A DNA stretch of 64,000 nt from Candidatus Latescibacterota bacterium (GTDB taxonomy: Bacteria; Latescibacterota; UBA2968), in NCBI GenBank assembly GCA_965204745.1, contig OZ242010.1, forward strand, positions 5,408,001-5,472,000, written 5' to 3'. The notes under the pieces are model-generated. The model had not been told where the DNA came from, did not search any database, and was given only the letters and a program-made list of their open reading frames with translations. The translations under genes were made by a program, and so were the position numbers. Of the stretch, positions 24,590 to 27,974 are shown one piece after another (the stretch's first letter is position 1; each line of letters begins with the position of its first letter).

Positions 24590-25414
24590 AACCCCTAAAT
24601 CCTGCAAATCCTGATCCAGACAAATGACGCAGAGATCGCGGATTGAGGAAGCGCAGGTGGGGCGGAGGGCGCGGGTAACTGTCTGAATCGCGGATTAAAC
24701 GGATTACGCGGATGAACGCGGATTGGGTTGGCAGGTAGGGCAGAGGGCGCAGATGACACAGACGCCGCAAGTAGGGCAGAGGATGTGGATTGGGGAAGCG
24801 CAGGTAGGACAAAGGTCGCAGGTGGTGCGAAGGACATAGCGGGGGCAGGGGGTAGCGGGGTAATCCGTGAAATCCCCAAATCCGCGTAATCCGCGATTCA
24901 GACAAATGACGCAGAGATCGCGAATTGAGGAAGCGCAGGTGGGGCGGAGGGCGCGGGTAACTGTCTGAATCGCGGATTAAACAGATTACGCGGATGAACG
25001 CGGATTGGGTTGGCAGATAGGACAGAGGATATAGCAGACACAGACGCCGCAAGTAGGGCAGAGGACGCGGATTGGGAAAGCGCAGGTAGGACGAAGAATG
25101 CAGAGGGCATGAAGGACATAGCGGATGCGGGGAGTGATGGGTAATCCGCGTAATCTCCTAATCCGCGAAAATCCGTGATTCAGACAAGGGGTGGACGCAG
25201 ATTGGACAGTGCAGGTGGCACGAAAGACACAGCGGGGGCAGGGGGGAGCGGGGTAATCTGTGAAATCCCCAAATCCGCGAAAATCCGCGATTCAGACAAG
25301 GGGCAGAGGACGCGGATTGGACAGTGCAGGTGGTACGAAGGACACAGTGGTTGTGAAGGGCGGCGGGTTTTAATCCGCGTAACCCCCAAATCCGCGTAAT
25401 CCGCGATTCAGACA
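24590..25414. repeat. Array of family D units, including a ~282-bp tandem duplication
   Basis: Two 225-bp units bounded by the inverted repeats, plus extra right ends at 25298 and 25414. Confidence 0.85.
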
Positions 25415-25440
25415 ATAGGTTTTTTATATCGGAGGTCAGA

Positions 25441-26223
25441 ATGACATTGAACGAGCGACAGAAGCGATTTTTTTACGAACAGGGTTATCTCAAGGTCGCG
25501 GGCGCGGTGCCGCGCGTGATGGTGGATGCGGCGCGGCAGGCGATCAACGCCGAAATCGGCAAGGGGAATGCCAATCCGTTTGCCGAAATCAACACCGCGC
25601 CGGTCATTGCGGATTTGTTCAATGAAACGCCCGTGTTTTCCCTGCTCGAATCCGCATTGGGAACGGGCAATTTGCAACGTTGTCGAGCGGGCGGCATTAA
25701 GCTCAATTTTCCGCGTCCCCCCGGCAGTTCGGCAGATGTATTGACGCGAGAAATTGGATGGGGCAGAAGTGGTGGGCATCTCGATGGGATCAAGGCCGTG
25801 GGCGACCGGTTGCGCGGGTTGCGCGATGATGGGACGTATAACCGCAATTTTACGTCGTTTGCCGTGGTGTATTTGGACGATGTGCCGGTGCCCAATGGTG
25901 GCAATTTTACCGTGTGGCCCAAGTCGCATCACTTTTTTGAAGATTATTTTCGGGAACACGGGCATCGCGTTTTGGACGATCACATGCCCCATGTCACCTT
26001 GCCCGAAGGCCCGGTCTTCGTGACTGCCGAGGCAGGAGATGTGATTTTTGCCCATCACGCAATGGTGCATACGGGCGGCCCCAACACCTCGCCCAATATC
26101 CGGTACGCGGTGATTTTCAGGGCGAAACACGCGCGGATCGACGACATTGGATTCGACGCGTTCACGGATATATGGCGCGAGTGGGATGGGGTGCGCGAAG
26201 CCGCGGGCATTGGGAAAAGATAA
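25441..26223 (+). CDS. Phytanoyl-CoA dioxygenase (PhyH) family protein
   Basis: FYEQGYL, GHLDG, GNFTVWPKSH, AGDVIFAH..MVH, R. Confidence 0.85.
   Translation: MTLNERQKRFFYEQGYLKVAGAVPRVMVDAARQAINAEIGKGNANPFAEINTAPVIADLFNETPVFSLLESALGTGNLQRCRAGGIKLNFPRPPGSSADVLTREIGWGRSGGHLDGIKAVGDRLRGLRDDGTYNRNFTSFAVVYLDDVPVPNGGNFTVWPKSHHFFEDYFREHGHRVLDDHMPHVTLPEGPVFVTAEAGDVIFAHHAMVHTGGPNTSPNIRYAVIFRAKHARIDDIGFDAFTDIWREWDGVREAAGIGKR
26172..26211 (+). repeat. 40-bp direct repeat, copy 1 (phyH 3' end)
   Basis: 39/40 identical to 27017-27056. Confidence 0.9.
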
Positions 26224-26226
26224 ACG

Positions 26227-26763
26227 ATGCCGCGAAAGATAAGGGCGTTAATCCGACAACTCGAAAAGGCTCAATTCATCAATCGGGGTGGTAAAGGTAG
26301 CCATAGAAATTGCGAAACATCCAAAAGGGTGAAAGTCTTGTCGTTAATTTGTTGGTCATTGTTGATTGTTTGGTGTATGTTTTGTGTCGTATTTGTTCTT
26401 TGAAAAGTGAATCGGGATAGGCCGTTGCTGATAAAGACATGTCTGCGACAGCGACAACCAAGCGGCAGACCTAAAATCTCCTATCAGCGTAAAATCCACA
26501 GGAAGAATAGGAAATAATAGACTATTCACTTGCGCGGCTAGCTTGACCGAGCAAGTAAAAAACGGACGTGGAGGTGCTGTAAGACGGACAAGAGGTTGTA
26601 TGTGCTTGGACGCTGACCCGATGAAGCGTCAATTTCAGTTGGTCAACAATGATCAACAAGAAAGGAGCGGATGCGCGTCACAATTTCTGGCAAACTCGGT
26701 GATGATGCGAAACCCTACCAAGAAAAGGAAGTCAAAAGGAAAATTGAGGAGTCTCAACGATGA
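26227..26763 (+). pseudogene. hicA: HicA toxin split by a 342-bp insertion
   Basis: MPRKIRALIRQLEKAQFINRGGKGSHRN..KV (26227-26337) + TISGKLGDDAKPYQEKEVKRKIEESQR* (26680-26763); ATGA overlap with hicB. Confidence 0.85.
26338..26679 (+). other. Structured insert (candidate RNA or mobile element) with boxA-like motif
   Basis: GTC duplicated at the junctions; closing stem 26349-26368/26640-26659; TGTTCTTTGAAAA at 26394; several internal hairpins. Confidence 0.6.
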
Positions 26764-26996
26764 CTGAAAGTGCCCAGTACATCAAAATTGTCGAATGGTC
26801 GGACGAAGACCGATGTTTTATTGGGTATTGTCCGGGCATTATCGGTCCGTGTTGCCACGGGGACAATGAAATCGAAGTCTATCGGGCACTGTGCCAGATT
26901 GTCGATGAGTGGTTGGAAATCGCCCGCCGAGAAAACAAGGCATTGCCGCCCCCAACGATTGGCAGAAACGTCGCCAAATTGTTAATGCCAGCCTAA
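26760..26996 (+). CDS. hicB: HicB-like antitoxin
   Basis: YIKIVEWSDEDRCFIGYCPG...HGD..E......IVDEWLE......LPPP. Confidence 0.8.
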   Translation: MTESAQYIKIVEWSDEDRCFIGYCPGIIGPCCHGDNEIEVYRALCQIVDEWLEIARRENKALPPPTIGRNVAKLLMPA

Positions 26997-27016
26997 CCCA
27001 AAAGCCGTAGCGATTG

Positions 27017-27056
27017 ATGGCGCGAGTGGGATGGGGTGCGCGAAGCCGTGGGCATT
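27017..27056 (+). repeat. 40-bp direct repeat, copy 2
   Basis: Duplicate of the phyH 3' end. Confidence 0.9.
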
Positions 27057-27086
27057 AATTGTGAACCCTACCAAAAGGAGATCAGC

Positions 27087-27974
27087 ATGAAATCGGCGTC
27101 TGAATTTGATCGGGAACTGCTCGACCTTTACGACGAGTATGTGCATGGGCAAACGGATCGGCGGGGCTTTTTGAATCGCGCTGCGAAATTTGCCGTTGGC
27201 GGTGCGACAGCGGCTTCCATTCTGGACAGCTTGAAACCCAATTACGCGCTCGCCCAGCAAATCGCCACAGATGACGAGCGCATCAATGCGGACCATCGAG
27301 CCTATCCATCGCCAGACGGACACGACGAGACGCGCGGGTATCTCGTCGCGCCGGCGGGAACCGAGGGCAAAGTGCCCGGGGTGGTCGTTCTGCACGAAAA
27401 TCGGGGCTTGAATCCCTATATCGAGGATGTCGCGCGCCGCGTGGCCGTGGCCGGTTTTTTGGCCTTTGCCCCGGACGCGCTGGCGCCTTTGGGCGGATAC
27501 CCCGGCACGGATGACGAAGGGCGGCTCATGCAGCGGCAAGTGGATCGCGACAAGATGATGGCAGATTTTATCGCGGCTGCGCGTTTTGTGCATTCGCACC
27601 CCAAATGCACGGGCAAAGTCGGGGTGGTGGGGTTCTGCTTTGGCGGCGGCATGTCCAACGCGCTCGCGGTGAGCATCCCGGATATTATTGCCGCTGCCGT
27701 GCCCTTTTACGGGCGGCAACCCGCGGCTGAAGACGTGCCGAAAATCAAAGCCGCGTTGCTCATTCACTACGCGGAATTGGACAGGCGCATCAACCGGGGG
27801 TGGCCCGCGTACGAAGCCGCCCTCAAAGAAGCGGGCGTGACTTATACGGCGCACATTTACGAAGGCGTCAACCACGGGTTTCACAACGACACGACGCCGC
27901 GCTATGACGAGGCCGCTGCAAAATTGGCGTGGCAACGCACGATTGACTTTTTCAACGCGACATTGCGGGAGTAG
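27087..27974 (+). CDS. Dienelactone hydrolase family (YghX-like)
   Basis: [41 protein letters not shown]. Confidence 0.92.

What the first reader, a model, noticed from the sequence alone, without database searches (positions are those of the whole stretch)
26227..26763. hicA toxin split by a 342-bp structured, boxA-bearing insert that supplies a new RBS and start to the second half
Seen: removing 26338-26679 (GTC present at both junctions) restores one HicA frame, ...GGKGSHRN..KV|TISGKLGDDAKPYQ. The insert ends pair as a ~20-bp stem (26349-26368 with 26640-26659) whose non-Watson-Crick positions are all G-U, which points to RNA-level selection rather than a DNA terminal repeat. Inside are TGTTCTTTGAAAA (26394-26406, matching the rrn boxA antitermination consensus of many bacteria) and hairpins GCTGATA/TATCAGC enclosing GTCTGC/GCAGAC, GAATAG/CTATTC, ACTTGCGCGG/CCGAGCAAGT and GACGCT/AGCGTC. 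It ends with AAGGAG-cgg-ATG in frame with the HicA C-half (26671-26763, 30 aa). The N-half reads on into a 21-residue hydrophobic tail (26227-26403). Inference: a mobile structured RNA (retron/RT-ncRNA-like, IS110-derived, or a captured antiterminated leader), or a conditional split toxin reconstituted by excision, splicing or bypassing (matching GTC codons at both junctions).
Basis: partly seen in the sequence, partly recalled or inferred. Interest (0 to 1): 0.85.

Follow-up and report, generated by a model that had tools for sequence, protein, structure and literature searches.

The report
Guide-RNA mini-transposon splitting a hicA toxin gene
The insert that splits the hicA toxin gene is a 341-bp protein-less relative of IS607-type transposons that carries only the guide-RNA scaffold of a TnpB nuclease, preceded by a ribosomal-RNA-type boxA motif, so it is a known kind of selfish element with an unusual leader and not a new splicing or toxin-switch system.

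Summary
The split hicA, the inverted repeat, boxA, the hairpins and AAGGAG-cgg-ATG are all present. The boundaries given and the "frame restored" argument are not right. The insert is one of three 98-100% identical copies in this genome, and five more diverged copies lack any gene. Its 3' 144 nt match the region that follows four intact tnpB genes here and tnpB genes in three related genomes. Every member ends in GAGCGG and follows GGG, as in IS607-family elements, which recombine at a GG core. A sponge-metagenome contig holds the empty site, an intact hicA. Precise excision or splicing would therefore leave this genome's hicA frameshifted. The boxA 13-mer equals this genome's own rrn leader boxA, and the hairpin after it covaries. 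Best reading: a TnpB-less IS607-type miniature element that supplies an omega (guide) RNA to TnpB made elsewhere in the genome; the guide would be the hicA sequence just after the insert. No Rfam family, group I intron, retron or IS110 link was found. No RNA data exist. Novelty: new variant of a known kind.

The parts
26227..26329 (+). hicA 5' part (native coding sequence up to the GGG target). In this genome the frame then reads on into the element as far as 26403.
   Evidence: ortholog in G010
26315..26317 (+). Run of A that holds one extra A compared with the empty allele, another strain's occupied allele and G010. This frameshift is separate from the insertion.
   Evidence: table 4: 1 base left out at 26315 in X10, and in one of two X1 contigs
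26330..26670 (+). The inserted element, 341 bp (copy A). It follows GGG (26327-29) and ends GAGCGG. The GG core dinucleotide is present at both junctions (26328-29 and 26669-70).
26349..26368 (+). Left-end subterminal repeats (two 10-mers of the TTGTTGRYYR type). This is also the 5' arm of the 20-bp inverted repeat.
26394..26406 (+). boxA-like 13-mer TGTTCTTTGAAAA, identical to the genome's rrn leader boxA.
26427..26488 (+). Covarying nested hairpin of the central domain (outer helix 26427-33/26482-88, inner helix 26441-46/26465-70).
26505..26527 (+). Small hairpin GAATAG/CTATTC. Other copies keep a hairpin here with different sequence, but the alignment is not in register.
   Evidence: by eye; not counted
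26527..26670 (+). TnpB omega-RNA (right-end RNA) scaffold module, homologous to the 3' ends of the tnpB elements.
26640..26659 (+). Right-end subterminal repeats (TGGTCAACAA, TGATCAACAA). This is the 3' arm of the inverted repeat.
26660..26670 (+). Conserved right terminus GAAAGGAGCGG. It is the end of the scaffold, and AAGGAG looks like a Shine-Dalgarno sequence.
26671..26690 (+). Predicted guide portion of the omega RNA, i.e. the hicA sequence just 3' of the element. Its length is inferred from other TnpB systems.
   Evidence: inference; the 16-mer is unique in the genome
26671..26763 (+). hicA 3' part, a 30-codon ORF that starts at a native internal Met codon.
26760..26996 (+). hicB antitoxin gene, intact, with its start overlapping the hicA stop.

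Best explanation
The insert is a non-autonomous, protein-less miniature element of an IS607-like transposon family. It integrated at a GG core after GGG inside hicA and killed the toxin gene. It carries, in order: left-end recombinase-binding repeats, a boxA motif, a covarying hairpin domain, the omega-RNA scaffold of a TnpB nuclease, and right-end repeats. Shown: it is a repeated element with defined ends; its 3' module is homologous to the tnpB 3' ends; the helices covary; an empty site exists. Inferred: a serine recombinase TnpA from one of the genome's six IS607 elements moves it in trans. Transcripts that run through it (here from the hicAB promoter, same strand) give an omega RNA whose guide is the hicA sequence just 3' of the element. 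A TnpB made by one of the four related tnpB elements uses that RNA to cut any vacant GGG-plus-target allele, which favours retention of the insert. The boxA would recruit Nus factors so that this long untranslated RNA, and hicB behind it, escape Rho termination.
For: Copies in the genome:
- There are 3 copies at 98-100% identity, 5 gene-less copies at 81-89%, and 4 copies of the 3' module alone behind tnpB ORFs of 414-447 aa.
- One of those ORFs (K) carries the Pfam domains HTH_OrfB_IS605, OrfB_IS605 and Cas12f1-like_TNB. It matches ISDra2 TnpB structures at E=4e-38.

Conserved module and ends:
- The same module follows tnpB homologs in G016, G019 and G006.
- All 17 aligned members end in CGG, 16 of them in GAGCGG.
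- 11 of 11 copies with a left end follow GGG.
- This mirrors the CboIStron (IS607) passages read in 10.1101/2023.11.20.567912: GG core, TGGG TAM, scaffold ending UCGG.

RNA structure:
- Scaffold helices: 96.4% of cells paired, against 25-40% when the partners are slid, with 5 compensatory pairs.
- Central hairpin: 99.4% paired against 21-55%, with 8 compensatory pairs. G-U pairs fit the + strand.

Insertion site and mobility:
- An empty-site contig is present in run X5. Occupied-site contigs are present in X1, X2 and X10.
- G010 has an uninterrupted hicA at the same place.
- Six resolvase-plus-tnpB elements are in the genome.
- The ends of the insert resemble theirs and those of a second miniature family.
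- One CRISPR spacer holds the last 26 nt of the right end plus 9 foreign bases.

boxA:
- The 13-mer equals the rrn leader boxA. The relaxed pattern has 11 hits in the genome: 2 in the rrn operon, 6 in these elements, 3 elsewhere.
Against: No RNA run holds the locus, so transcription, RNA ends and TnpB binding are untested.

No element with a recombinase gene has exactly these ends. The motif TTGTTGRYCA clusters only in copies A-C and in one unrelated protein-coding repeat, so the mobilising enzyme is a guess.

The stretch between the scaffold core and the terminus is shorter in A-C than in any tnpB-linked member, so the scaffold may be impaired.

The covariation rests on few independent lineages from one genome plus three relatives.

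The family was not found in 40 relatives by DNA, nor by exact-pattern scans of two collections, so there is little outside support.

The boxA role is inferred from sequence identity alone. In copies D-F a hairpin followed by a U run lies just upstream of boxA, which fits poorly with read-through from outside the element.
Confidence: 0.78

Rival explanations
1. It is an inert relic: a miniature IS607-type element that still moves or once moved as DNA, but whose RNA module, boxA and hairpin no longer do anything. The hicA disruption is then just an insertional knock-out.
For: No expression data exist. The scaffold's 3' variable region is shortened compared with tnpB-linked copies. hicA is lost or broken in other ways in relatives G018, G016 and G009 and in the strain of run X10, so the gene is dispensable.
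Against: Compensatory changes in the central hairpin and scaffold between the A-C and D-H subfamilies indicate selection on RNA or single-strand structure after tnpB was lost. The boxA 13-mer is kept in 6 of 8 gene-less copies.
Confidence: 0.15
2. It is a miniature IStron: a self-splicing (group I-like) intron combined with an IS607 element, removed from hicA mRNA so that the toxin is still made.
For: IS607-family IStrons with omega RNA at the intron's 3' end exist (10.1101/2023.11.20.567912, passages read). The element lies inside a gene, on the sense strand, is highly structured and ends in G.
Against: An Rfam scan at E up to 10 over 25900-27200 found no intron or ribozyme family, and scans of other copies found none. 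The 5' exon ends in G, not U. The element is 341 nt, about 144 of which are scaffold. Exact removal leaves this genome's hicA frameshifted because of the extra A. Another strain has lost the hicA start region (19 bases left out at 26216 in X10).
Confidence: 0.04
3. It is a retron-like or IS110 bridge-RNA-like non-coding RNA, or a captured piece of the rRNA leader.
For: It has terminal inverted repeats and a boxA identical to the rrn leader.
Against: The genome's single RT hit is about 420 kb away. None of the 57 IS110 hits is next to copies A, B or C. Similarity to the rrn operon is limited to boxA and a few bases beyond it. The 3' module is homologous to tnpB 3' ends.
Confidence: 0.02

Closest known systems
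IS607-family TnpB elements and IStrons (CboIStron; 10.1101/2023.11.20.567912, passages read)
   Same: GG core dinucleotide at both junctions. A G-rich motif (GGG here, TGGG there) precedes the left end. The omega-RNA scaffold runs to the right boundary and ends in CGG, so the occupied site lacks the G at position -3. There is no target duplication beyond GG. The laboratory 'mini-IS' without tnpA or tnpB is excised in trans and can guide TnpB.
   Different: This is a natural element with no protein gene. No group I intron was detected. It has a boxA and its own covarying hairpin where tnpB would be. The recombinase partner is unidentified.
PATE-like minimal IS200/IS605 elements that encode omega RNAs (Meers et al., PMC10055086, passages read)
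   Same: Protein-less derivatives that keep the transposon ends and an omega RNA, which must be used in trans by TnpB made elsewhere.
   Different: Those are moved by a Y1 (HUH) transposase as single strands and have hairpin ends and a TTGAT-type TAM. This one has the IS607 features (GG core, repeated subterminal motifs).
ISDra2 TnpB-omega RNA complex (PDB 8exa, 8bf8, 8h1j)
   Same: The linked TnpB proteins are full-length homologs (E=4e-38). The guide RNA lies at the 3' end of tnpB.
   Different: The RNA is unrelated in sequence, and no Rfam family covers this scaffold.
boxA/Nus-factor antitermination of rRNA operons (and, from recall, of CRISPR arrays)
   Same: The same 13-mer as the genome's rrn leader boxA, placed early in a long untranslated RNA.
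   Different: No boxA has been reported with TnpB guide RNAs in the library searched: 3 papers hold both words in the search listing, and their titles concern unrelated genome surveys; none was opened. Function is untested.

Membership tests
IS607-family transposon (non-autonomous derivative) | GG core dinucleotide at both junctions, with no further target duplication | tested here: met
   The empty allele reads ...AAAAGGG|ATG..., and the occupied allele reads ...AAAAGGG-TGAAAG...GAGCGG-ATG. All 17 aligned members end in CGG, 16 in GAGCGG. 11 of 11 left ends follow GGG.
IS607-family transposon (non-autonomous derivative) | Serine recombinase TnpA, in cis or available in trans | tested here: inconclusive
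   The element has none. There are six Resolvase hits next to tnpB in the genome, three of them without internal stops. Their ends only resemble those of the insert.
IS607-family transposon (non-autonomous derivative) | Repeated subterminal motifs at both ends, in inverted orientation | tested here: met
   There are two 10-mers at each end. Other subfamilies have their own repeat sets.
TnpB omega RNA (right-end RNA) | Lies at the 3' end of tnpB and runs to the transposon's right boundary | tested here: met
   Homologous modules follow 4 tnpB genes in this genome and tnpB genes in G016, G019 and G006. In the insert itself tnpB is absent.
TnpB omega RNA (right-end RNA) | Conserved secondary structure | tested here: met
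   16 pairs; 96.4% of cells paired; 5 pairs with changes on both sides; slid controls 25-40%. The full published three-stem-plus-pseudoknot layout was not resolved.
TnpB omega RNA (right-end RNA) | Bound by TnpB and guides cleavage of a TAM-flanked target | not testable with these tools
   Needs a biochemical or plasmid-interference assay.
Group I intron / IStron | Match to the group I covariance model and conserved core | tested here: not met
   No Rfam hit at E up to 10. Other copies give none.
Group I intron / IStron | Spliced exon-exon product that restores the gene | not testable with these tools
   No RNA holder is listed. Exact removal would not restore this genome's frame.
Retron non-coding RNA | Adjacent reverse transcriptase | tested here: not met
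   There is a single RVT_1 hit, at C1:5010819, far from all copies.
IS110 bridge RNA | Adjacent DEDD IS110 recombinase | tested here: not met
   There are 57 hits, none next to copies A, B or C. One lies about 400 bp from tnpB copy J, and with so many copies chance can explain that.
boxA antitermination site | Sequence match to the organism's own rrn boxA | tested here: met
   13 of 13 to the leader boxA. Copies D-F match the spacer boxA at 12 of 13.
boxA antitermination site | NusB/NusE binding and Rho read-through | not testable with these tools
   Needs reporter or binding assays.
HicA toxin (PF07927) | Full-length match to the family model | tested here: met
   The uninterrupted G010 ortholog scores 41.3 bits against a cut-off of 27. 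The N-half of the window's gene scores 13.4 bits, below the cut-off, and the C-half matches no family.

The most novel reading that the evidence does not exclude
Guide-only IS607-type miniature elements have replaced tnpB with a leader of their own: an rrn-type boxA plus a stabilising hairpin. With it, a long untranslated transcript survives Rho termination and delivers an omega RNA to a TnpB encoded elsewhere. Such an element parasitises the nuclease of its relatives, and it also softens polar effects on genes downstream of its insertions. This would be the first Nus-factor antitermination site tied to a transposon guide RNA.
Probability: 0.25. Interest if true: 0.7.

Novelty: new variant of a known kind. 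Interest (0 to 1): 0.5.

Why it matters
TnpB guide RNAs are the ancestors of Cas12 guides, and how they are made and kept is an active question. A natural element that keeps only the guide scaffold shows that guide and nuclease can be uncoupled in IS607-type families, as was noted for IS605 PATEs. The conserved boxA and covarying hairpin in the tnpB-less copies suggest a way for such RNAs to be expressed without translation of tnpB. The locus also comes with matched natural alleles (empty, occupied, and occupied plus further decay) and a CRISPR spacer against the element's junction. Together these make transposition, homing and host defence directly testable. For hicA itself the result is ordinary: an insertional knock-out of a toxin that relatives have also lost.

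Tried and rejected
Rfam. Scans at permissive E-values over the locus, at gathering thresholds over seven copies and at E up to 5 over three loci found nothing relevant.

Exact-pattern scans for the scaffold core.
- The strict pattern gave 0 hits in genome contigs and 0 in metagenome contigs.
- A loose pattern gave 118 stretches in genome contigs. None of the fetched stretches matched the element by BLAST, so these are chance hits.

Relatives. A DNA search of 40 relatives found the element only in the window's own genome.

Sequencing runs. No RNA holder is listed, so nothing can be said on expression, RNA ends or splicing. Only Logan contigs could be laid.

Structure prediction. RNAalifold on the 17-member alignment gave only a sparse consensus, so helices were named by hand and counted. 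The single-sequence fold (z = -2.84) is dominated by the terminal inverted repeat. It did not recover the covarying hairpins, so I did not use it as evidence.

Promoter scan. No sigma-70-like site was found on the + strand in 26100-27100. A weak TGGTCA-N17-TATGTT site upstream of boxA, seen by eye, falls below the tool's threshold.

G-U pairs in the 20-bp end stem. All 4 non-Watson-Crick positions are G-U on the + strand. However, the equivalent end repeats of tnpB copy J do not show this pattern, and the arms are arrays of a repeated 10-mer, as in IS607 ends. I regard RNA-level selection on this stem as undecided.

Captured rrn leader. Rejected, because only boxA and a few following bases match.

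Supplementary files of the papers were not available; the figures and tables on IS607 ends and TAMs in 10.1101/2023.11.20.567912 could refine the comparison. The role of boxA at CRISPR arrays is recalled, not read. For one search I saw the search listing and abstracts only.

Full report
What is at the coordinates. The sequence holds a hicA N-terminal ORF (26227-26403), a 30-codon ORF that matches the HicA C-terminus (26671-26763) and an intact hicB (26760-26996). The N-half matches Pfam HicA only weakly and the C-half matches no family.

The insert is a repeated element. A search of the window's own 5.48-Mb genome gave these copies:
- three copies at 98-100% identity: A in hicA, B at C1:3848535, C at C1:3055907;
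- five gene-less copies at 81-89% that share positions 43-297 of the query or part of that span (D-H);
- four places that share only a 75-nt core (I-L).

A three-way alignment with flanks shows that identity begins at GGGTGAAAG and ends at GGAGCGG. With the query reset to 26329-26670, B and C align end to end. The element was not found in the 40 relatives searched, 20 of them in the same genus.

What the shared core is. In I-L the core lies directly after ORFs of 414-447 residues. The ORF of K carries HTH_OrfB_IS605, OrfB_IS605 and Cas12f1-like_TNB. It matches ISDra2 TnpB structures over its full length (E=4e-38). By eye its RuvC Asp, Glu and Asp motifs are intact.

TnpB homologs at 56-74% identity in G016, G019 and G006 are followed by the same module. 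In the 17-sequence alignment every member ends in CGG, and 16 of the 17 in GAGCGG. Hand-named helices of this module are paired in 96.4% of cells, against 25-40% when the partners are slid. Five pairs change on both sides, and U-G pairs fit the + strand. The module is therefore the omega (right-end) RNA scaffold of this TnpB clade. Rfam has no family for it.

Which transposon family. All 11 copies with a left end are preceded by GGG, and all right ends read CGG. Each subfamily has its own short repeats near both ends, in inverted orientation.

These are the features described for IS607-family elements in the passages I read of 10.1101/2023.11.20.567912:
- a serine recombinase that needs a GG core;
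- a TGGG TAM;
- a scaffold ending UCGG, so that the occupied site lacks the discriminating G at position -3.

The genome has six Resolvase genes, each next to a tnpB. Their ends, and those of a second gene-less family (C1:1109975 and 2785248-2785629), resemble the ends of A-C. No element with a recombinase has exactly the A-C ends, so the mobilising enzyme is inferred.

Exact insertion site.
- Relative G010 has an uninterrupted hicA between the same neighbours. It matches HicA_toxin at 41.3 bits.
- Laying Logan contigs of four runs showed one 436-nt contig in a sponge-metagenome run (X5) that joins 26316 to 26669 with ten letters between. This is the vacant site, reading ...AAAAGGG then ATGCGC..., an open hicA.
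- Contigs in X1 and X2 cross each junction, and one contig in X10 spans the whole insert.

The insertion is therefore 26330-26670, 341 bp, with GG on both sides. This genome also has an extra A in the run 26315-26317. The extra A is missing from the vacant allele, from X10, from one of two X1 contigs and from G010.

Without the extra A the N-half stops at the TGA made by the element's first bases. With it, the frame reads through the T-rich left end, and that produces the 'hydrophobic tail'. Precise excision or splicing would leave this genome's hicA out of frame.

hicA decays in other ways too. X10 lacks 19 bases around the start codon. G018 and G016 keep hicB but not hicA, and G009 has an internal deletion.

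The part that replaces tnpB. Copies A-H share about 140 nt that the tnpB-bearing copies lack. This stretch begins with the boxA-like 13-mer. The genome's single rRNA operon has TGTTCTTTGAAAA upstream of 16S and TGCTCTTTGACAA in the spacer. A-C carry the first exactly, and D-F carry TGTTCTTTGACAA. Of 11 genome hits to the relaxed pattern, 2 are in the rrn operon, 6 in these elements and 3 elsewhere; I calculate about 1.3 expected by chance. Nothing else resembles the rrn leader.

Over 8 copies, 99.4% of cells are paired, against 21-55% when slid. Eight pairs change on both sides, and the G-U pairs fit the + strand. The lineages are few, so this is good evidence but not overwhelming. I did not find boxA linked to TnpB guide RNAs in the library: the search listing held 3 papers, with titles on unrelated genome surveys.

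How it most likely works. The shown and inferred steps are listed under Best explanation. In short, a resident serine recombinase moves the element in trans. Read-through transcripts, here from hicAB on the same strand, carry boxA, the hairpin, the scaffold and then 16-20 nt of hicA as guide. That 16-mer is unique in the genome. A TnpB from copies I-L could use this RNA to cut a vacant GGG-flanked site, and the CGG of the occupied site would protect it.

The AAGGAG before the ATG is the conserved terminus of the family, and the ATG is a native Met codon. The 'new RBS and start' is therefore a by-product, though it could still help translation into hicB.

Rivals are given with their tests in Rival explanations. 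The main one is that the RNA parts are relics. Splicing, retron, IS110 and captured-leader readings found no support.

An unplanned finding bears on mobility. A CRISPR array of 194 repeats (C1:1458780-1472708) has one spacer, out of 193, that matches the genome outside the array with more than an 18-nt word. That spacer holds the last 26 nt of the A-C right end followed by 9 unrelated bases. The match stops exactly at GAGCGG. It confirms the boundary independently, and it shows a fourth insertion, on DNA that this lineage once sampled.

Limits. There are no RNA data. Only contigs could be laid, not reads. Paper supplements were not available.

Noticed in passing
own genome C1:1458780-1472708 (outside the window): A large CRISPR array with 194 repeats of 37 nt. 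One of its 193 spacers (at C1:1461126) equals the last 26 nt of the element's right end plus 9 unrelated bases. No other spacer matches the genome with more than an 18-nt word.
   Followed up: partly
window 26167-26211 and 27012-27056: A 45-nt direct repeat (93% identity) brackets the whole hicAB cassette. It duplicates the 3' end of the upstream PhyH-like gene. Relative G016 shows a remnant of the same arrangement.
   Followed up: partly
window 24606-25415: Tandem repeats with periods of 282 nt (2.1 copies, 86%) and about 112 nt (2.4 copies), just upstream of the PhyH-like gene. They are non-coding in appearance and their nature is unknown.
   Followed up: no
loci L024 (G018), L025 (G016), L027 (G009); run X10 at window 26216: hicA is lost or broken independently in relatives while hicB is kept. 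G018 and G016 have no hicA. G009 has an internal deletion. The strain of run X10 lacks 19 bases around the hicA start.
   Followed up: partly
own genome C1:1109975-1110385 and C1:2785248-2785629: A second protein-less miniature family. Its right end and RNA module derive from the genome's six recombinase-plus-tnpB IS607 elements, and its left end resembles that of the hicA insert.
   Followed up: partly
own genome, whole: A very heavy load of insertion sequences: 57 matches to the IS110 transposase domain (mostly identical copies), 16 TnpB zinc-ribbon matches and 6 IS607-type recombinases.
   Followed up: no
window 26282-26356 in run X1: Two haplotypes of the occupied junction are present in one run (contig depths 52 and 31). 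They differ by the extra A and two substitutions, which suggests two strains or two copies in that sample.
   Followed up: no
own genome C1:98990, 483270, 3084699: Three more boxA-like 13-mers lie outside the rrn operon and the elements. Their contexts were not examined.
   Followed up: no
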